64,000 bases of DNA from Balanoglossus misakiensis. Its lineage: Eukaryota; Animalia; Hemichordata. The stretch lies in assembly GCA_040954595.2 (NCBI GenBank), contig CM082581.2, forward strand, positions 8,206,059-8,270,058. The letters are read 5' to 3'. Under the pieces are notes generated by a model. That model did no database searches. It saw nothing but the letters and a program-made list of their open reading frames with translations, and was not told the DNA's origin. Below, one piece after another: positions 345 through 63,019 of the stretch. A program made the translations under genes and the position numbers. Every line of letters starts with the position of its first letter. Within the stretch, counting starts at the first letter, position 1.

Positions 345-1345
345 TCTTCTCCATTAGACGATTGCGATGGCGCTTTGTTATTTGAATAGAGCGAGGCGCA
401 GTCACTCGAGATAGCGTCATTTCATCTCCACGTTTATTGCCCAGGCCTGTGCTGCTCATTACACGCTGATATTGACACGGTACAAGCAAAAAAAATCAAA
501 CACAAGGTTTGTGTACAAAATCTGCTTTTCACTGATTATCATTACTACTTGACGTCACGTGTCCTTTGTAATCGACATCGTATGAATGTGAAATGAACAA
601 GTGGGCACAATGGCCCGGCCCCGCACTCGCCTAATTTGCGCTCCTGTCGAATGCCGGGAAACTTCTTACAATAGCTTACACCGTAAACCCCGTGCCTCAG
701 ACCCAGCCATCAACTCTGCTCCTCCTCCCCCCCCCTCATCCCGAAAAAAAATCAATTTAGCCCAGTAATGACAGAGTGGTGCCCCTGCAAGAAACGGTGC
801 AATCTCGTTGATCATTTTTTATTCGCTCGCTCCACTGTGGTCTGAAAAGTCCACGCTTTCTTCACCGAGACCACTTAGACTTAATGGCTTGTACCAATTT
901 CCGCCGTTTACACTGAAATCATCTTCCCTTGTAGCAGGAGGACGTACTAATTGGCACAGCCCTTTCAACACACTTTTTTTTCACGGGAAGATCCTGCCTC
1001 AACTCGGGGGGAAAGTCGATCCTCTACCTGCGATTTGTTGAAATTTACACCTTGAATCGGATACGCGCCAAGTAAGCGGTGGAGATCATGTAATTTCTAT
1101 AGTCCGGGATTTAGCACAAACGCAAACTGCCATTAGCGGCATCGAGGTGAAATTTTTAAAAAAGGAAAAGTGAAAGAAAAGTGAGAAAGGAAATGTTTTA
1201 CACACAGATGTCGACTGATTAATGGTTCAGCGCCCACAACATTGGAAAAATAACGCCGGAAAATTAGTCCTTATTACAGGAAAACCTATCACCGGCGCGG
1301 CCAACAATGTTGGTGCTAATTGGGTCCGAGCATGCGCTCTGGTGG
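345..1345 (+). repeat. Left copy of an inverted-duplicated non-coding element (candidate enhancer)
   Basis: 456-614 is the reverse complement of 62520-62676, and 868-909 of 62210-62251 (41/42). Weaker collinear matches: 1256-1268 vs 61861-61873 (13/13) and 1274-1294 vs 61582-61602 (18/21). Outer limits are approximate. Confidence 0.9.
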
Positions 1346-4900: not shown

Positions 4901-6052
4901 CACGAGCCCTTTGTTTAAGTCTTATTCTAGCCAATAAGTACCTCATATTTAAATCCCCTTAAAATGTGTCAAGTTTTTTGTTAAACAAAGCAACATAACA
5001 GAAACGACGCAATTTGTTAGAAAATCGCGTTAATGAGTAAGGAGCATTAAGGTGCGCGCATTCATTAAAGAATAAAGCGCTTAATAAACATATTCGGTTG
5101 TTGGTCCTGGCTAAGTTTAAAAATCTGGATATGATGTCTCATTCTGACGCCATTAGTGCTTAGAAATACGCCGACATAAAACACTTCAAGATTTTCAAGA
5201 ACGGCGTTTCAACGCGTGGCCACTAGTTCGATTTAAAAATTACAGAAATACGAGTACAGTAAAGTAAGACTTCAGTACATTTACATCGTCATCGCCATAA
5301 ATGGACGGCGCCACCTAGATTTTGTTCTCTTCGCCGACTATCGTGCCGGTGCGTATCCTAAAATAGAGAAACCCGTCTTTCTGAGAAAATTCGACTCACT
5401 CCTTAAACGGTCCCTATCTCTATATACCCAATCAAATCACAATAATTGATAGTCATTTCACTACACTTAGTCAAATGACTACGATTTATATTAATTTCGG
5501 CGCTTGTTCTTTCCCCAGTATTCGTAATTCGCCATCGCCTCGGGTCTTGGTCTGCATGCGGTACGTTTTAAATATGCCGCGCTGCCTTTGGGCGTTGGGT
5601 TTCCCTGATGTGAACGCGAGTTTTGTTAAAAGCCGGCGATTTGCACAACGACAATCCTGTCTCGAACATACTGTTTGTAATATTACACATAAAATCTCAC
5701 GGGACTTTGTAAAAAAACACGTAACCTCGTGCACATTTCGAGGAAAGCATAAAAAACAACATTCCCCGGGTTACAATGTACATGTACACCAGAACATCAC
5801 CGCTGTGCCCTAAAAAATACAAATGCACCCAGTTTACCGAAACGAGTTTAACATCATTATTTTTGGCTGCATACGGCTGGTGAACCCCTATTTTTGACAA
5901 AAAGGGTTATTTTTTGGTGCCCATTAGAAATGTGATTTGTTGAAGTAATTAGTCCCTCAGGGCCTGTGTGGTATTTCAGTAGCTTCAGCGAAGCCCGGAA
6001 AATACGTCGCATGTTTTATATCTTGTGATTACGAAAGAAAGAAACGGGGAAA

Positions 6053-6763: not shown

Positions 6764-7027
6764 TATGTATGTATGTATGTATGTATGTATGTATGTATGT
6801 ATGTATGTATGTATGTATGTATGTATGTATGTATGTATGTATGTATGTATGTATGTATGTATGTATGTATGTATGTATGTATGTATGTATGTATGTATGT
6901 ATGTATGTATGTATGTATGTATGTATGTATGTATGTATGTATGTATGTATGTATGTATGTATGTATGTATGTATGTATGTATGTATATGTATGTATGTAA
7001 TGTACATGTATGTAATGTATTATGTAT
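6764..7027. repeat. (TATG)n microsatellite, long and nearly perfect, with a degenerate tail
   Basis: Directly visible; produces the spurious MYVC/HTYI ORFs. Confidence 0.98.
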
Positions 7028-21308: not shown

Positions 21309-21834
21309 CAGATAGTGAAATATAGTCACTTTGGAACAGTATTTTTGAAACAGTTGTGACGTTTCGATTTGACTACAACGGAACTTGATCACGCAATGGT
21401 GTTAATTATTCAGCGTTGATGTCTCAGCAACAGGCGGAATAATATGTCCGTAAATAGATGGCAGGTGATATCCTTGGTCTCTGTTCATGATTGGCCACCG
21501 TTGTTTGATACAGGTGGATTCTTTCACTTTACGTTTCAACCAGTCCTGTTCCCTGGCTAGAACCTTGGTATTATGCCAGGAAACACTATGGCCGCGGTGG
21601 CGTTGCAGTGCTCCCCAATTCCAGTAGACTTTTCCTTGTTGGTGTGTTCTTTGAAACGGACGCATAGTGGACGTTGGGACTCGCCGATGTATGCGCGACG
21701 GAATAATTAACACCATTGCTTGATCAAGTTCCGTTGTAGTCGGATCGAAACGTCGCAACTGTTTCAAAAATACTGTTCCAAAGTGACTATATTTCACTAG
21801 CTACTTTGAGTCTTGGAACCAGGAATTTTCCATG
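21309..21834 (-). mobile_element. 5'-truncated Penelope-like retroelement (PLE) insertion
   Basis: Minus-strand peptide GHSVSWHNTKVLAREQDWLKRKVKESTCIKQRWPIMNRDQGYHLPSIY resembles the C-terminus of Penelope/Poseidon GIY-YIG endonucleases. 99-bp inverted repeats at 21313-21411 and 21701-21799 (95/99); the right copy has a ~35-nt tail. Direct repeat GATAAAGAGGA at 21298-21308 and 21835-21845 (TSD). Confidence 0.82.
21716..21758 (+). ncRNA. Minimal type I hammerhead ribozyme-like motif in the PLE pLTR (possibly degenerate)
   Basis: TTGC-TTGATCA-A-GTTCCG-loop-CGGATC-GAAACGTC-GCAA: stem I TTGC/GCAA, CUGANGA-like box, stem II, GAAA, palindromic ACGU and a GUC cleavage triplet. The 3-8 pair is non-canonical (U3/C8). 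Confidence 0.5.
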
Positions 21835-23917: not shown

Positions 23918-24032
23918 ATGTATGTATGTATGTATGTATGTATGTATGTATGTATGTATGTATGTATGTATGTACATGTATGTATGTATGTATGTATGTA
24001 TGTATGTATGTATGTATGTATGTATGTATGTA

Positions 24033-24068
<36 letters not shown>

Positions 24069-24070
24069 CA

Positions 24071-24157
<87 letters not shown>

Positions 24158-24206
24158 ATGTATGTATGTATGTATGTATGTATGTATGTATGTATGTATG
24201 TATGTG
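23918..24206. repeat. Compound microsatellite (TATG)n-(TG)n-(TGCC)n-(TGTC)n-(TATG)n
   Basis: Directly visible. Confidence 0.97.

Positions 24207-25679: not shown

Positions 25680-25768
<89 letters not shown>
25680..25768. repeat. (TC)n microsatellite
   Basis: Directly visible, perfect. Confidence 0.97.
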
Positions 25769-25771
<3 letters not shown>

Positions 25772-28121: not shown

Positions 28122-28401
28122 ATGTCGACGGAGAAAGAAGAGATGGGCTCGCCAAAGTCGAACAAATTCTCCATACAGAGCATACTGAGCACAGACAGCA
28201 GCAAACAGAGGAATGCGGACAGTAATTCGGACGGGCGACCGTCCTCTGTGGAAGACTCCACAACAAACAAGGCGGAACGAAGCGATCTCTTGTCGTACAC
28301 GTCGGTCGCACAGCACTTTGTCAGCGACAGCGCGGTCGCCCGGCCGAACCCCTGGTACCCGTGGATAGCCGCAAACCCATATCTTCATTACGCATTTGAA
28401 C
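28122..28401 (+). CDS. Hmx: Hmx/NK5 homeobox gene, coding exon 1 (93 codons + 1 nt)
   Basis: ATG at 28122; encodes MSTEKEEMGSPKSNKFSIQSIL with an eh1 Groucho-binding motif (FSIQSIL, 28167-28187) and a W/Y-rich NPWYPWIAANPYLHY motif typical of HMX N-termini; ends at a strong donor GAAC|GTAAGT (phase 1). Confidence 0.9.
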
Positions 28402-29660
<1,259 letters not shown>

Positions 29661-39200: not shown

Positions 39201-42200
39201 TGGCATCAGTAGCGAGGCACAATTGTAGCGTATTGTTATATCGGCGGCCGTAATGTAAAGCCCCGGGTTCCCATCTGCCGGAGGCTGAAGGCACGACAAC
39301 TCTGAGCATGCGGGGTAAGGGGATGAGAGAGAGAAAAAAAAAATGGCGCGAGTTTCTACAACAAAAGTGGCAAGTCTACAAAATCCCGGAACAGTTTGAC
39401 CATCGCGCCTGCGTATTAGATTACCCTCATGGCTCACAGAAAATGATATTAATAATTGTAGAATCGGTCATCATTGTCATGAGCACCCCATTAAAATGAT
39501 TATACCAATTTTTCCGGCTGTAAACATCCACTGCGCGGAAATAGGCGCGATGCCGGAATTATATTTATTTTAAGTGAGGAGCGAGTTGCTTTGATGTGAA
39601 GCCCTGTCTCGCAGATTTATATGGGGTAATACAAAACGGAGACTTTACCTCAATGCCCCGGTTCATTTTCCTGATGGCCAGATTCGAAGATTAAAATAAG
39701 CGCACAACAACAAGGCAAGACCCGACTTTAATAACATCTTATGTTCGCCTGTGCAAACGTCTTTTAGCCGCGGCGATTTCACACGAAAATATTGTGCCAT
39801 TTTGTCGGCGTATTACTTTAATACGAAAATGTAGTTTTATTTCTATAACAACACAACGAAAACGCTGTCAGTGAGATGGGCTCTCCCCGTGCGCCGTCGT
39901 CGTAATGTACCGAACATAAGACTCGAATTTAGCAGATTACCTAGCGGGGGAGAGTCGAGAAAGAACCCTAATAACAATGCCTCTCGTACTATAAACGTCT
40001 ACTTTTTCGTCCAAATAATTTCCCCATTATTCAAAACATACAGAGCTCGCAGTAATTGTACTGGTCTTTCGGAATGGAATCGCGTTTATCGGCGAAAAGC
40101 CATTGAAATTAGCCGTCTGTGGTTAAATTGGCTTTGCCTCAGTAGTCATCGAAAATTCGCGCCAAAAAGTTCTTTTCCACTGAAACCAAATTACCTCTTC
40201 TACATGAGTTAACCCCAGTCAGGAGATTTATTTTGATCGGCCTGAATGTTAAGAGGCTAATTTTTGTTCTCAGTCTAAATGAAGATTTGGACATGTCGTA
40301 TACGCCTAACCTAAACAGGAAAAAATATCACCGGGAGGAAATTAAAAGGAAAAAAAGACAAGTGTTAGTTCGGGAAAGCGATATTCAATGTACCATCAGT
40401 GTTAGTGTTAATAAAACGGATATAGACGGGTCCGGGATACACGTGAAATGTCAAAATGGCTCCTAAATTATCGTACATATTGACAGTCGTGTACAACACA
40501 TTCAGTCAAACTATGATGCGCCTTCTAACAATGTCATTTTGCAAGTGGGTTGTCCAAACAACAAAAGTCAAATACTAACACACAAATAAAATACGCGTAA
40601 CGAATAAATCCAGGCATTTTTTGTCACTTTTCTTGACTCTATCAAAGACGTCATGTCGAAAGATTATTTTCCATAACATGCGCCCATGAATGCGGATTAT
40701 TACTCAGAAGAGGATGATGTGTTTCGGAGTCGGATTTCTATTCCATTTTTAAACAAGAGATTACGAAAGCCGAGTGCGATTTTAACGGTTGCCTGTTTTC
40801 TCATTCATAATGCGGAGTGCTAGTGGCGCTTGTCGGGTAAGTGAACGTTTGCTCTCCGGTGTTTAATGATCATTAGTTAGGCTGGAAATACGAAGAAAGC
40901 CAGAAGAAGAGGAAGAAAAAAGTAAAAAACAAAAAAAAAATCGTTGGCGGATTCAGTTACCCAGCATGGGACGAACAGCTGCCTGTCTCCAAAAGGGTTT
41001 TAGAGTCGGTTGTTACAATCGATGATCTCGGGGAAAACGACGCCAAAATGGTGCAGAGCAAAAGAGATAAAAAGTTGGCGGAACCTCGGCTGACCCCCTC
41101 TATTACGCAGAGGTCAGGGGGTCACCGCGCTAACTAATACCACTCAATACTGCCAACACAGAGGTATTAGCGCGGTTCTCTGCCGTGTGCTCCGTGTGGT
41201 TTCCCCCCGTCGGTACCAGCGCGGTGATTTGACGAGATCGTCTCCAACCAGCCAAAAAACAACATGTAGCTAGCCGCCGCTCGATTCTTTTTTTCTCCGA
41301 GCCCTTGGGGCTCGAATGGATTCGCATTTCATCAGGAGTCGACTCAACTAAAAAGGTTTAAATCAAATTGCTATTGCCAGATAAAATACCAAAGAAATCG
41401 ATTTGGGGGAAAATTGCACCGGATGGCTGTTTTCTGCTCGTCAGGGATGAGCATTTGCAACATTGTGTAGGGAACGTGATCGCTCGATTTGCTCTTCAGA
41501 TAATTCAAGTCGAATAAGGAGTGGATTTAATCGAATCTGTAGACCTAAGGAGCCGTGTCTCTTCTTCCGCGGTAAAAATATCTAAAAACTAAAACAAAAC
41601 ACCCCTACTGCCTGGGTGCTGAGAATTATCAAGAAGAAAGCATTACTCGAGCATGCGCGCGTGAAATGAGATTTCTTCAACTTTTTTTCGCCTTTTCTAT
41701 TTAACATGAACTCCAAGAACGAATAGCGCACGTATATTGTCTGCCGCTATCCATTGTGGATTTACAAGGCACAGTTTCCCTAAGAGTCACGACTGTATTG
41801 TAAGAGCATCAATGTCGATCTTTTAGAAGAACTATCGATTTCACAGCGATGACACTCAAACTGCCCCACAAAAAGTTCAAATCATTCTCTTTTTGCCTTT
41901 GTGTGTCAAGGATGGGTCAAGTTTCGCAGAATAAAAAAGTAGACTAAAATATGTGCATAGTAATAAAAAATGTTCTTAATTCCAGTGTCTGTGGTCAATG
42001 GCGAAGGTATATAGTCTCAGCGCCGAAACCGGAATCGGTTGAATGAGTGTGTCGAACACTTGTCATTAACCGATCTTATGCAAATGAGACTTGCTTGTGT
42101 AGCCTGCGATATATCAAATCGAATCGAAGCCAGGCCTATAATTACGGACAGTGTCCTGTGCCATTGACGCGGCAAAGTGTTCCCCATCTCGACTGTCACC

Positions 42201-56145: not shown

Positions 56146-58875
56146 AGAGCTGAGGTGGTCATATTTCTCTCTACTTTAAATATTAAACGATTCATTTTGA
56201 CCCCTTTGGTCTAACTAGAAACGATCCATCGTCAGAACGAATACTCTTCGCGGCCTGATTTTTTAAAAAAAGTTTTCTTTGCTGGGGGGGGGGGTGCTAT
56301 ATCTGTCAGGTCGATCAGCCAAACTTGGCTTTAAAGCGTTGACCACAACTGCAGTCTGTAGTCTTTGGGGCAAATAAACGCAGAACGCAGTATACACACA
56401 CACACACACTCAAATTCATGTATATTTCACACCCTGCTGGTAAAAATACACGTATTTCAAAGCGATATGCGCATGCGCCGTTTGGCACGCTCCCAGATTC
56501 ATTTTGCGGCGCGGCTTCCACAGGGATAAGGATGTCTCCTTATCTATATTTAATTTCAAATAAAAACAGCGAATAAACGATGAAACTGCTGATTTTTACA
56601 CTAAGCGGAAGTTGTCTTTTTCTCGCCCGAGAATACTGGGGAGACAATCCCGCGAAAGTCGCCTTTGAAGATGAAACACGCAAGTGTTAACAGAACAGAC
56701 GGCGAAGATGAGATAGAAAATATCACATTACAAAATTATACTGATTTGAAAAGGAAAATACCACGGTGAAACGAGCCAAATCGCTGGAAATAAGTGGTGA
56801 CTGTCTGTTTTTTTCGGATAATTGTATACTTTATAGTGGCAATCTTGTACACCCTTAGGTGTGAATGTAATGGCGCAGCTGGTATGCGCTTCTGTCTTGC
56901 TGTGGTCTTCTTTAGAAATAAAGATGTCTGTAGGAAAAGGTGATCTCGTCACGACAATAAGCCTCCATTTACATTTTGGCGATTTTTTCAGAGCGCATTC
57001 AAGATTCAGAGATGTAATCAATTCAAGCTGCAGCGAATGTAGTCCGCTCCATACCACCGGCAACGAACCCTTTTCTACCAGCAACACAAAAAGGGATTAC
57101 TAGTAATAACAGCGTTCGGTTTAATTCAACCAGTGGGGGGAAATGGAATGAACGGGAGAAGAAGAAAGTCAACTTTGTTTGTCAGAACGGCAGTGTGTTG
57201 TATTTCGCGGTGTACACACGGATATTGTACTTCCTTTCGCTTTCATCACACTGATTCAAAAATAACTTCTGAAAGTGTCGGATTTCTTCTTCAGCGGAAT
57301 ATGTTACTCAGACGCCTCGAATATTATTACCCAGATGCCCCGAAAACCCTCGCCCTGACTGTAACTGGCGCCGGCGCAAACTCGCTTCCTGTTTTAAAGC
57401 AAAGATGCAAAGCGCATGATCAAGTGCAAATTTACGACATCTGTGAAGCTGTATATGACGTGTAACCCCTAGCAACAAAGGTTGCATAGTGAACGTCTCA
57501 TATTAGTTTAGTCGAAAGATTGGATTCTTCTGCTAGAGTCACGATCCTATCAGAATAATTCTTTTAATTTCCAACAACGTTCGAAACTCAATGAATTGAC
57601 ATTTCGCTGTTGCTCTCGGCTACAAGGGAAGATGGAACAACGCTTGTTGGATCTATCACGATCCCTTTAATAATAAATTCTTTGAATGTTGATAAATGGA
57701 GGAAAATGTCATAACTTCAACATTTCTGTGGTCTCTGAATGTGTACACGCGTGGTGCCCTTTTTACGCTGTATGGTTCTATTACCACTTTTCGTTTCAGT
57801 GCGCGGTTGAAAAACAGCACGTCTAGCAAAGTTGATATGCAGCTGAAGTTATACATGAGAGATCAACAATATTCGATACAAGCTCCGACATTTTACCCGG
57901 TAAAAAATAAAACAAAGATAGTTGATAACAATAACAAAAGAGCATCTTTGCCATTTATTATGATTAAATCAAAAAATTTCTGACTTGCAAATATTTACCT
58001 TCTTAGATGGAAGGGAGCAGGAAGGGAATGGACGATAAGAGAGAATGCACGAACCATTTTAAGTGTGCTGAATTTTTCGAAAGAAAGGGGCTGTTCTCTT
58101 AATACTCTTTTTTGGAAGAATTACTCACAACACACGTATGTAGACGATTCCAGAATTCACACAGAGAAGCATTTGGTTCATTCGTTATATAGGGTCATAG
58201 CTCGTCGAAAATAATTAAAATATTCAACTCACTTCGTGTTCCGGTGTCCTAAATATAACAAAAAAGCGAACTCTTCATTAAAATATAGCCATATTAATCG
58301 TTAGTATTCGTTATTATTTGACAGGAAAAGGGTAGAGTCCCTTCGCACTGCTAGCTGTCCTTCAAAAGTGAGCCAGTACACCGGCTTTAGCTATTTTTTT
58401 CCATCTTTCTACCTGGAAACGGAATATGGTTTTAATTCCAAGGGGGATGTCTGTGACAATCAGAAGGCCACCGCTCTGATTAGGGTAGAAGCCATTGTGA
58501 ACGATGCCTGGTAGCGGCCGAAAACCCGAGGCGCTATACATTAGAGCTAGCAGAGAAAGAACAAGCACTGAAATTAATATCAATTGCAGTCATTTGACTG
58601 CATATACGTGGACCAAAATTACTATCGATTCTTGTAATTTAATTGAGTAGTCGGATTTGACTGCAAGCGATACGGGGGACCTCTGATCAGACATGGGCGA
58701 GCGTCTCTTTTGTTTTTACAAAGGTTATCCCGCTAATTGGTGGAACCGTCAAGCGGCGTGCGCGTACGTGTGGCGGCGCGGGGAGAAAGTCGGTATAAAA
58801 CGCGATGCAACAGGAGGGGACTGGAAAAAAAGATGAAGTTAAAGTTTAAAGTTTAAAAGATGCGTACATGTACAT

Positions 58876-58945: not shown

Positions 58946-61200
58946 ATTCCGATTGTACAAAATACATGTATTGTGATTCAGCCTGTCACAATGGACATGC
59001 CTTTATTTGCGAACCCTGGTCCGTTTCCATGCGAAAAGCAGGCGTTACTGTGGTAACAGTTACAAACACGGAGTTCAATCAGTCGCTAAGTAGCTCTTGA
59101 AATGCAATAATAACCCCCTCACCTCGAGTTAGACTCCCGATTCGAATCAGCGAAACGTCAACAAACCATGAAATCAGGGGACCACGCGGTTGCGTCTGTC
59201 ATTATTCCAACGAGTCAGACGGAAAATATTGACCGACAAGCAATTTCCAAAGTTTCCGTCTACGTAATTCAGAAATCAATTGCTCGCATTAGGTAAAGCA
59301 TTACACTCTGGGTAATTCGAAATTTGTGCAAAACCGTGTTAACTTCAATCAAACCTGTCTGACCGTTCTAAAAAGTTAATTAACTATGCCAAATATTACT
59401 GTAAGGTGGCTTTAAGCTTTGTCAGAGCTTGTAGACCGTGATGTCGGAACGACGGAATTCAATTCGCGCGTTTTCTGCCTCTTGGCCTCTGGTTAAGAGC
59501 ATTTGCAACTTCTTATGAAAAAGATTGCTTTTAGAGATTACTTATAAGGCAAATTATATACGTGTATATTGGCCTTTTAAGGTCTTAATTGACGTTGGGA
59601 GAAAATTTTGCGGTTTATCCACATTCGCCATTTTCAGAGTACAGCCTTTATTTAGATTCGTAACTCTGTACCGTTCGGATTTAAATGTGATCATTGTTCA
59701 TACTTATGTGCTTTATTTTGTTCTTAAAGATGCAGTCTATTTATACTGTCCTACTTAGTGTAAAATTCAAACTAATACCTTGATGGTACTTTTCCCGCCA
59801 TTTTGGCAAGGCCAGCGCATGACTCGCACACTGACTCGCGCGCATGTAGGTGGGTACATGTATAAGGAGTTCATTAACGTGCCTGTAGATCATATAATAT
59901 GCTTATACGATCGACTTATTCATCCACACGTACAGCGGGAGTGGTGTTTTATTGTAAAAAAAAACAGGTATGTTTCATCGAAAGCCTCGGAGCAAGATGT
60001 GTCAAATTCTGAAATGAACAAAAGTAACCATTTGAAAGATGGCGACCAGACATGCACACAAAAAGACTGGGAAGATATGGAGAGAGAAAAAAAGAGAGAG
60101 AGGGGGGGGGGGGAGAGAGGGAGAGATAGACGACAGACACAGTGGTGCGTAAATTTGAAGTTTTCAACAAAAACCCTCTATTCCATCGCGACTGACCAAA
60201 TTTGGTCACGTGGACAATTCTCTCGTTGGATTAAACCGCGGATGTATGTCCTCGTCTGATTGGATAGATCTCTGACAATTAAATGAATCGGCAGACATGC
60301 TGTCCAAAGAATCGGTCTTTTTGTAAAAAAAAAATCCATAACGACTGACAAGAATCTTGCTTACACAACCGTAGTTTTCTGATGTTTGCGGTTTCTTGGA
60401 GAAGACTGTTTCAAAAGCCTGCTAAGCTAATTGGAAAAGTAAGGTTTTCCGAGCGTGTGCGCGCCCGTTTTTTGGGTCGATGTAAGATGCACAAAGAGGC
60501 AGTTCGTGTCATTACGAGACTTCCATAAACAAAACTAATTATGCATCGTCCGTCTCGTCAAATGCCATTTCTCGACTCAGCGTGGAACCCGCCGAAATGT
60601 TTCCCCCTCAGGCAACGGCAAAGAGTTGTAAAGAATACGCAACATATCTGACCTTCTCGCTTGTTGCCAGCGATAAAATTATAAGCCCAGTCATTACCTT
60701 TTCCATCATAGCACATGCACGCCATTAAATCGTCTCAAGCCTCGATCTTTTTTTCAATGGCGAGACTATAAGGACTTTCGTTGAACGGGGGAGATCTGGA
60801 AGCTTTGAACACGGATCATAAAGGCTTCGGGATGCAAATTTTTCATCAACCGCCTTGCCACTTGTGACGAAGCAACGAGAAGTTCGGTGTGAGAGATTCG
60901 TCTAAATTTTTGAAAGACGATGCAAGGACCGGATGCAAGAAAAATCTCCCGAGGTCAGGGCAAGACATGAAGATGTCATACTGAACGGCGAAATGATGCT
61001 ACACTAGAATACGTCCAGTAAACTTGCTTTATGCTTAGAAGTAGCGTTTGTTTATTCTCCTGCGTTTTTTTGACAAAGAAAGAAACTCAAGTAAGAGTTT
61101 CGATATTTTAAATCGGATGGTATGCGGTTATGGTAAAAGTACCTCTTCATTACCTTTGTCCCGCCATTTGAATATTTTTAGTCAACCTAACAACCCAGCC

Positions 61201-61376
61201 AGTCAGTCAGTGAGTCAGTGAGAGAGTCAGTCAGTCAGTCAGTCAGTCAGTCAGTCAATCAATCAATCAATCAATCAATCAGTCAATCAGTCAATCAGTC
61301 AATCAGTCAATCAATCAATTAATCAGTCAATCAATCAGTCAATCAGTCAGTCGTCAGTCGATCAATCAATCAATCA
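61201..61376. repeat. (AGTC)/(AATC)n microsatellite
   Basis: Directly visible. Confidence 0.93.
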
Positions 61377-61529
61377 GCAAGTCTAATAATATAACAGAAC
61401 ATGTTTTTTCTCCTGAATATAAATTTCATGAATATTTGATATTCCGAAATGCACACACATGACGCTTATTACCACACTCCAAGTTTGTTTATTTCAGCTT
61501 ATAACGCTGGAGTGCATCTGAGCGAGCAC

Positions 61530-62760
61530 AGAGGTCCGCGCTGGCTCCTAATTAGCTCCAAAAACCCCGGCAATAATTGGGCGGTGAAGGGTTTTCCTGC
61601 AAACTAACACCTCTGAAGTCGGTCTCACTGAGTCAATAACTAACAGCGCAGTAACTAGACACCCCGGACTATACGGTTACTTTGAGACTAAATTAACAAT
61701 AGGGGCAGACACTAAAGCTTTTCGTCCCACAGGATCGGTTCGCGCAGCTTTCAATCCAACTAATTGGTAACCCTTTATCTACGCCTTGAAACGCGATCTG
61801 TGATTGGCAAGGGCAGCATTTCACATGATTGCCGCTCGTTCTCATTAAATTGCCGATTCTACTAATTTTCCGGTCATCCTTTTTCTCCCCGAACTGATTG
61901 GTTCGAAAGTTGACGTTAAAACTTGGCCACTTGAGACATCGAATGAATGTGAATACAATTTTTTCTTCTTCTTACGAATGATGCTTTTTCATCCCGATTC
62001 TCCGTCGATCGGGTTCTCAATACTAATACCGTTGTTAAGCGCCATGAATAAGCAAAAAATATTCCTTGAAACCGTATGCACTCACAATCTTAAACGATCA
62101 GCCTCGGCTCAGATTTCATGTATTCTGGAGCTTGATCTTGCATGGATAGCAGGAAAGAGTGTACCCAATTACGGGGCTCTCTCAGGCACATTACATGGCG
62201 ATTTGCTGCAAACGGCGGAAATTGGTACAAGCCATTAAGTCTAAATGGTCTGATAAGAACGTATCGAGGGCTTTTAAACACAATATTTCTTAATAACGAG
62301 AATCGCGGCAACTATGGCATATCATTTGGGTATTCCGATCACAATATTTCGGTCTAAGTATATTTTTTTAAATCTGCAATGTTTCCTTAAGCCCGATCAT
62401 CGTACGCTTTCCTATTAGTAAGCCCCACCCGACCGATGGTAATTATTTCCACCCATTGTGAAATCTGGTGAAATCGTTTTCGGCGGCGTACAAATCGCGC
62501 GAGCATTTTGTGCGCTCAAGCCATTGTGCCCACTTGTTCATTTCACATTCATACGATGTCGATTACAAAGGACACGTGACATCAAGTAGTAATGATAATC
62601 AGTGAAAAGCAGATTTTGTACACAAACCCTATGTTTGATTTCTGCTTGTACCGTGTCAATATCAGCGTTTTAATGAACGGCAGAGGTCTATAACATAACA
62701 AATACGAGGAGGAACTAAGTTTTATTGGTTTCGTGATGCGCTTGTTGACTGGAGAAGGTG
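61530..62760 (-). repeat. Right copy of the inverted-duplicated non-coding element (candidate enhancer)
   Basis: Reverse complement of ~345-1345, with islands at 62520-62676 and 62210-62251 and similar inter-block spacing. Confidence 0.9.
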
Positions 62761-62872
62761 GGCGTGCGAGAACATTCGGATCGTGGTAGTCTTTAGTGTT
62801 CAGAAAGAGGGATAGAGGGGAGAGGAGAAAATGGAGAGGTGGTAAGAGAGAGTTACAGATAGAGAGAGAGTC

Positions 62873-63019
<147 letters not shown>

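What the first reader, a model, noticed from the sequence alone, without database searches (positions are those of the whole stretch)
456..614. Island A: ~160-bp near-invariant core densely packed with TF motifs
Seen: 506-614 matches the reverse complement of 62520-62628 at 108/109 positions, and identity collapses right after 614. It contains Sox-type CTTTGT and ACAATGG, an NK/Hmx-type CAAGTG, the E-box CACGTG, TGACA, and TGATTAT/CATTA homeodomain-like cores. The single mismatch (553) changes a perfect CRE palindrome TGACGTCA (left) to TGATGTCA (right), so the two copies could differ in bZIP input. Inference: an enhanceosome-like core under base-level constraint, or a recent conversion tract.
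Basis: partly seen in the sequence, partly recalled or inferred. Interest (0 to 1): 0.75.

Follow-up and report, generated by a model that had tools for sequence, protein, structure and literature searches.

The report
Mirror-image twin enhancers flanking Hmx
A 109-letter stretch of non-coding DNA sits as two mirror-image, almost identical copies about 30,000 letters on either side of a single Hmx developmental gene, likely in an acorn worm; it is likely an old duplicated gene switch kept by selection, a known kind of element in an unusual layout.

Summary
Window 506-614 equals the reverse complement of 62520-62628 at 108 of 109 bases (C/T at 553), and identity then falls to background. The island is one of three clear collinear inverted islands (A, B, C) plus a faint fourth (D), separated by spacers at near-random identity. 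They point inward at the only gene found in the window, a two-exon Hmx (Nkx5) homeobox gene, 86% identical to Ptychodera flava Hmx, so the host is likely an enteropneust hemichordate. Contigs of one public sample hold both copies with their own flanks at roughly summed depth, which argues against an assembly artefact or a high-copy repeat. It has no shared ORF, Rfam match or RNA fold. Best reading: an old inverted duplication of a regulatory block of 5 kb or more, whose enhancer cores stayed under purifying selection in both copies and likely serve Hmx. Gene conversion may have polished the core; these data cannot separate the two. The named motifs are present, but the high density is partly post hoc. 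No orthologous sequence could be obtained, so cross-species conservation, enhancer activity and homology to the vertebrate Hmx uCNE/dCNE pair are untested.

The parts
443..614 (+). Island A, left copy (5' part 443-505 less conserved; core 506-614)
   Evidence: 160/169 aligned identical, core 108/109
62520..62689 (-). Island A, right copy, inverted (core 62520-62628; mismatch at 62581)
533..544 (+). TGATTAT plus CATTA, homeodomain-type cores (label recalled); identical in both copies
550..561 (+). Overlapping CRE palindrome (550-557) and E-box (556-561) (labels recalled); holds the single mismatch 553
564..569 (+). CTTTGT, Sox/TCF HMG-type site (label recalled)
598..603 (+). CAAGTG, the canonical HMX1/NK site; candidate autoregulatory input (inferred)
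   Evidence: PMC3742133 passages
607..613 (+). ACAATGG, Sox-type site (label recalled); homology ends one base after it
868..912 (+). Island B, left copy
   Evidence: 43/45 to 62251-62207
62207..62251 (-). Island B, right copy
1264..1341 (+). Faint island D, left (pairs with 61607-61529); weak
   Evidence: 0/200 shuffles in a hand-chosen box, p 0.065 against genomic null in a wider box
61529..61607 (-). Faint island D, right; weak
5425..5555 (+). Island C, left (71-77% to 58649-58514); could also be an unrelated dispersed repeat
58514..58649 (-). Island C, right
28122..28401 (+). Hmx (Nkx5) coding exon 1
   Evidence: GT donor at 28402
29002..29660 (+). Hmx coding exon 2 with homeodomain

Best explanation
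Island A is one half of an inverted pair of non-coding blocks that bracket a single Hmx gene, and it is likely the core of a duplicated distal enhancer that purifying selection has likely kept almost unchanged in both copies. Shown: the pair, its collinear sister islands, near-random spacers, two copies in a public sample, and Hmx as the only gene found between them. Inferred: an old inverted duplication copied at least 5 kb of regulatory DNA (A-B-D-C); unconstrained spacers decayed while factor-binding cores were retained; both modules loop to the Hmx promoter (27.5 kb 5' of the ATG, 32.9 kb 3' of the stop) as redundant 'shadow' enhancers reading Sox, homeodomain/NK (possibly Hmx itself), bHLH and bZIP inputs, probably in neural ectoderm. 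The 553 change would swap a CRE for a TALE-type TGACA in the right copy.
For: Separate islands in the same order and similar spacing on both arms: offsets from A 362/768/4919 left and 377/1026/3979 right. The A-B spacer is near random (48% global identity against 45% null, p 0.035; best local alignment p 0.225), so the duplication is old while A (108/109) and B (43/45) stayed near-identical; core and B do not differ in identity (Fisher p 0.20), so one process can explain both. B, at 45 bp, is below the 50-bp minimum homology for conversion cited in PMC3199776 (passages), though that paper also cites much shorter tracts in yeast. Homology ends one base after a Sox-type site. Of 144 ORFs of 80 aa or more, only Hmx passed a Pfam cut-off. 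No Rfam hit; fold z-scores 0.14 to 1.38 in 4 of 4 strands; longest stop-free frame shared across the core about 48-58 codons with no shared gene. Precedent: vertebrate Hmx has a duplicated CNE pair with reporter activity (10.1101/2020.09.07.281501, whole text).
Against: No orthologous sequence was obtained, so conservation between species is not shown. No functional data. The core is far more similar than the 5' part of the same island (1/109 against 8/60 mismatches, Fisher p 0.001 with a post hoc boundary), a step that conversion also predicts. Only 442 bases lie left of island A and about 1,300 right of its twin, so a nearer target gene outside the window cannot be excluded. All 7 allele-like differences in run X1 lie outside A and B, but that is not significant (about p 0.18 by my arithmetic).
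Confidence: 0.58

Rival explanations
1. Concerted evolution: selection keeps a homologous island, but the 108/109 identity of the core is owed to recent or recurrent gene conversion between the inverted arms 62 kb apart.
For: Step in identity inside island A (p 0.001, post hoc). Linked inverted pairs are a classic setting for conversion: a 150-bp tract between the inverted Capitella Dlx genes (PMC3199776 passages). Nearly all spacer bases between motifs in the core are also identical.
Against: B is equally similar (p 0.20) yet short and cut off by a 253-bp near-random spacer. Conversion alone does not explain why islands survived while spacers decayed. Non-coding elements can hold 100% over 200 bp between mammals (PMC2781166 passages).
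Confidence: 0.22
2. The modules are duplicated enhancers, but of other genes just outside the window (for example a paralogous pair or NK-cluster neighbours), with Hmx in between as a bystander.
For: Both islands lie at the window edges. Hemichordate nkx5 sits in a cluster nkx5-msx-nkx3.2-nkx4-lbx-hex (PMC4729200 passage). Duplicated CNEs normally accompany paralogous genes (PMC2781166) and no second Hmx is in the window.
Against: All four islands step inward toward Hmx; no significant homology outward of A in the 442 bases available (genomic-null p 0.135); the quoted cluster lists no paralogous pair around nkx5.
Confidence: 0.12
3. The arms are transposon-derived: terminal inverted repeats of a large element, or two chance insertions of a dispersed repeat.
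For: Inverted arms at both ends of a long segment; island C (71-77%) could be such a repeat; the window holds a separate retroelement-like relic with inverted arms.
Against: Identity fades gradually on the outer side and stops sharply on the inner side, the reverse of a TIR; no target-site duplication at 4 of 4 boundaries inspected; no transposase among 144 ORFs; only left- and right-copy contigs were listed on A at 80% likeness, core depth 78 against 48-56 and 23-29 for the flanks (16 of its pieces shown, 6 not shown, and a filter drops some records).
Confidence: 0.05
4. Assembly artefact, or a duplicated non-coding RNA or exon.
For: One contig of run X2 joins the left outer flank to the right inner flank. 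No RNA data bear on transcription.
Against: Run X1 holds all four flanks as separate contigs around a collapsed core, with the right-copy differences as in the window; C is read in X1 and T in X2 of the same sample (this sample may be the window's own source). No Rfam match, fold or shared ORF.
Confidence: 0.03

Closest known systems
Vertebrate Hmx uCNE/dCNE pair (Papadogiannis et al., 10.1101/2020.09.07.281501; whole text seen, supplements not)
   Same: Two homologous non-coding elements at an Hmx locus, produced by local duplication and both retained.
   Different: Vertebrate copies are tandem, over 1 kb with a ~500-bp shared core, lie in a two- or three-gene Hmx cluster, and are shown enhancers. 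Here the copies are inverted, 45-172-bp islands, flank one Hmx gene from both sides, and are untested. Sequence homology to uCNE/dCNE could not be tested.
Duplicated CNEs (dCNEs) near paralogous developmental genes (PMC2781166, passages)
   Same: Short paralogous non-coding islands in decayed flanks beside a developmental transcription factor gene.
   Different: Those arose largely in vertebrate genome duplications and sit by paralogous genes; here both copies are in cis and no paralogous gene is in the window.
Capitella teleta inverted Dlx pair with gene conversion (PMC3199776, passages)
   Same: Linked inverted duplicates with a ~100-150-bp tract of unexpectedly high identity at a homeobox locus.
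   Different: That tract covers homeobox coding and intron sequence of two living genes; this one is wholly non-coding and about 30 kb from the gene.
Shadow (redundant) enhancers (concept recalled, no call)
   Same: Two elements predicted to drive one developmental gene redundantly.
   Different: Shadow enhancers are defined by overlapping activity and often share little sequence; here sequence identity is shown and activity is not.

Membership tests
Duplicated conserved non-coding element (dCNE) | Non-coding, not a structured RNA | tested here: met
Duplicated conserved non-coding element (dCNE) | Low copy number, paralogous copies with decayed flanks | tested here: met
   2 copies in the window; roughly summed depth in run X1; spacer near random. 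No whole genome was held, so diverged copies elsewhere are not excluded.
Duplicated conserved non-coding element (dCNE) | Lies near a developmental regulator | tested here: met
   Hmx at 28122-29660
Duplicated conserved non-coding element (dCNE) | Each copy accompanies a paralogous gene | tested here: inconclusive
   No second Hmx in the window; only a non-significant helix-3-like stretch at 40218-40159; outside the window not available
Duplicated conserved non-coding element (dCNE) | Conserved between species | not testable with these tools
   No animal genomes searchable; pattern scans gave only chance hits
Duplicated conserved non-coding element (dCNE) | Enhancer activity | not testable with these tools
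   needs reporter or chromatin data
Vertebrate Hmx uCNE/dCNE | Sequence homology to the ~500-bp shared core | not testable with these tools
   preprint supplements closed; journal version not held
Vertebrate Hmx uCNE/dCNE | Tandem arrangement in a multi-gene Hmx cluster | tested here: not met
   inverted, around one Hmx
Gene conversion tract | Identity above flanking paralogous sequence, with a step | tested here: inconclusive
   step against the 5' part p 0.001, none against B p 0.20; constraint predicts the same
Gene conversion tract | Within-species clustering of paralogous copies | not testable with these tools
   no orthologues
Transposon terminal inverted repeat | Sharp outer ends with target-site duplication | tested here: not met
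   4 candidate boundaries; outer side fades gradually
Transposon terminal inverted repeat | High copy number or internal transposase | tested here: not met

The most novel reading that the evidence does not exclude
A hemichordate Hmx locus underwent an inverted duplication, lost the second Hmx gene (a faint homeodomain-like relic may lie at 40.2 kb on the minus strand), and kept both enhancer sets as mirror-image twins that gene conversion still homogenises; the core descends from the same ancestral element as the vertebrate Hmx uCNE/dCNE, so the same enhancer was duplicated and retained independently in acorn worms and vertebrates.
Probability: 0.08. Interest if true: 0.75.

Novelty: new variant of a known kind. 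Interest (0 to 1): 0.42.

Why it matters
Two copies of one element in one genome, with decayed spacers, act as a built-in phylogenetic footprint: they mark candidate Hmx enhancers in a hemichordate to the base. Hmx regulation is central to the debate on the origin of cranial sensory ganglia, and the duplicated vertebrate Hmx CNE pair was described as apparently unique. A second, differently arranged duplicated pair in a non-chordate deuterostome would test whether Hmx favours doubled enhancers. The pair is also a clean case for separating selection from conversion in near-invariant non-coding DNA, with a natural one-base variant at a CRE. If the element proves an ordinary lineage-level duplicate, the value is modest.

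Tried and rejected
Whole genome: none held, so no genome-wide copy count. No RNA holder listed among public runs. Earlier scan notes: nothing in 4 of 4 look-ups. Structured RNA and coding readings rejected (two sub-threshold Pfam hits, v110 E 0.004 and Zn_ribbon_Elf1 E 0.008, taken as noise). Methyl-CpG decay as the cause of C/T at 553: not supported, because window CpG observed/expected is 1.03-1.17 in 8 of 8 bins, so the direction of the change is unknown. Relic of a second Hmx at 40218-40159 (-): top ungapped homeodomain score outside Hmx (48), but 4 of 60 shuffles reach it, the HMM score (4.5 bits) is below the null maximum (6.6), and DNA rank is 89 of 626: hint only. The X2 contig joining left-outer to right-inner flank is read as graph collapse through the shared core; contigs cannot tell it from an inversion allele. 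A recollection that Royo et al. 2011 reported an Hmx element could not be checked (not held); the table passage in PMC5010895 credits that paper with Msx, Six3/6, SoxB2 and ZNF503/703 elements. Maeso et al. 2013 was also not held.

Full report
Observation. Identity falls to 4 of 20 per bin after the bin spanning 614. The island runs 443-614 against 62689-62520, 160 of 169 aligned bases with two indels, so only the 109-bp core is near-invariant. The named motifs are present; TGACA is at 473, outside the core, and the T allele adds a second TGACA on the opposite strand while breaking the CRE. Motif labels are recalled, except CAAGTG, which PMC3742133 gives as the canonical HMX1 site (passages).

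Context. The window holds one recognisable gene: Hmx/Nkx5, exons 28122-28401 and 29002-29660, 312 aa. It is 86% identical to Ptychodera flava Hmx, 78% to Glandiceps, 77% to Saccoglossus and 56% to a Branchiostoma protein over aligned residues, and these three acorn worms are the top 3 of the 120 listed hits. The host is therefore likely an enteropneust, nearest to Ptychodera among those listed (inference). Of 144 stop-free frames of 80 aa or more (microsatellite-like frames filtered out), only Hmx passed a Pfam cut-off; short exons would be missed. Island A lies 27.5 kb 5' of the ATG and its twin 32.9 kb 3' of the stop.

Anatomy of the duplication. Self-comparison finds three inverted islands in the same order on both arms: A, B (868-912, 43 of 45) and C (5425-5555, 71-77%), plus a faint D (1264-1341; 0 of 200 shuffles in a hand-chosen box, p 0.065 against a genomic null in a wider box). 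Offsets from A are 362/768/4919 on the left and 377/1026/3979 on the right. The A-B spacer keeps its length (253 against 268 bp) but is near random in sequence (48% against 45% null). This is the pattern of an old duplication in which only constrained blocks survive (inference).

Is it real and low copy? Logan contigs of two runs of one sample were laid on 300-1300. In X1 the core collapses into one 109-bp contig at depth 78, between left flanks at 56 and 48 and right flanks at 23 and 29; the shared part of B has depth 93. The right-copy contig carries the same 3 substitutions and 3-base gap as the window's right copy. X1 reads C at 553 and X2 reads T. Both copies and both letters thus exist, at about two copies. 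Limits: the sample may be the window's own source, contigs drop variants, 6 pieces were not shown, and a filter removes some records. One X2 contig joins the left outer flank to the right inner flank; graph collapse explains it, and an inversion allele cannot be excluded.

What it is not. No Rfam match in the window at gathering scores or in 300-1500 at E up to 1. Fold z-scores are 0.14 to 1.38 on 4 of 4 strands. No shared reading frame of note. It lacks the sharp outer end and target-site duplication of a terminal inverted repeat.

Motif density. With an 18-family panel the core has 7 families (4 of 560 background windows reach 7). Because the named set was chosen from the island itself, density is weak evidence. 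The identity between copies, not the motif list, carries the argument.

Selection or conversion. For selection: several separate islands, B as similar as the core (p 0.20) although only 45 bp long and isolated, and a boundary that falls at the end of a Sox-type site. For conversion: a step inside island A (8 of 60 against 1 of 109, p 0.001, post hoc) and the precedent of a 150-bp tract between inverted Dlx genes in Capitella (PMC3199776, passages). The 7 allele-like differences in X1 all fall outside A and B, which is not significant. The window shows no CpG depletion, so 553 cannot be polarised as methyl-decay. These data favour constraint as the reason the islands exist and leave conversion open as the reason the core is this similar.

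Mechanism. Most likely both modules act as distal, redundant enhancers of Hmx (inferred, 0.58), probably in neural tissue: Hmx is expressed in the CNS of amphioxus, Ciona and lamprey (10.1101/2020.09.07.281501), in amphioxus hypothalamus-like cells (PMC11758999, passages) and in the head of panarthropods (PMC13088399, passages). I found no hemichordate Hmx expression data. An inverted duplication including the gene would have left a second Hmx on the minus strand. None is intact in the window; a helix-3-like stretch at 40218-40159 (-) is the best candidate but is not significant (4 of 60 shuffles).

Comparison with what is known. Vertebrate Hmx loci carry a tandem duplicated CNE pair with reporter activity (10.1101/2020.09.07.281501, whole text; supplements with the alignments were not visible and may bear on homology; the journal version was not held). 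Duplicated CNEs by paralogous genes are well known (PMC2781166, passages), as are deep CNEs in hemichordates (PMC4729200, passages; PMC13317027, passages). The element works like a dCNE, but membership rests on cross-species conservation and activity, neither testable here; the inverted, single-gene layout differs from the vertebrate pair.

Is it in print? Searches for Hmx with hemichordate, amphioxus or sea urchin and CNE terms returned 0 papers, or only the vertebrate/Ciona Hmx paper and an ERR paper; broader listings showed no title on this locus. 'Hmx' has 0 occurrences in the main text of PMC13317027, PMC5010895 and PMC11618098 and 0 in 2 supplement files of PMC4729200. In 5 supplement files of PMC13317027 the four Hmx identifiers searched occur only in an orthogroup row (2 of 22 'hmx' places shown). 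The library lacks most subscription journals, so this does not prove it is unreported.

Verdict. A real, probably functional, duplicated regulatory module in a mirror-image layout around a hemichordate Hmx gene: a new variant of a known kind, interest 0.42. The boldest reading (lost gene twin, ongoing conversion, shared ancestry with the vertebrate element) has probability about 0.08.

Noticed in passing
window 21310-21802: A ~490-bp segment with 102-bp inverted arms (21310-21411 / 21701-21802, 95%) around a frame (21402-21800, minus) that resembles the end of a retroelement endonuclease by eye (recalled); no Pfam hit. Probably a transposon relic.
   Followed up: partly
window 40159-40218 (-): Weak homeodomain helix-3-like stretch on the strand and side where a lost inverted Hmx twin would lie; not significant.
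   Followed up: yes
window 1149-1184: A short piece shared with another locus: contigs of both runs match here and run on into unrelated sequence; likely a dispersed repeat fragment.
   Followed up: no
whole window: CpG observed/expected 1.03-1.17 in all 8 bins: no CpG depletion, as expected for a germline-unmethylated developmental-gene domain (inference).
   Followed up: partly
window 6766-6990, 23919-24200, 25680-25770, 61200-61360, 62870-63010: Long TGTA, TCTG, CT, TCAG/TCAA and CA microsatellite runs; they account for nearly all other repeat hits.
   Followed up: no
outside the window (PMC13317027 supplement, orthogroup OG0002833): Strongylocentrotus purpuratus has two Hmx entries while Saccoglossus, Patiria and Branchiostoma have one each; their orientation could be checked against the lost-twin idea.
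   Followed up: no
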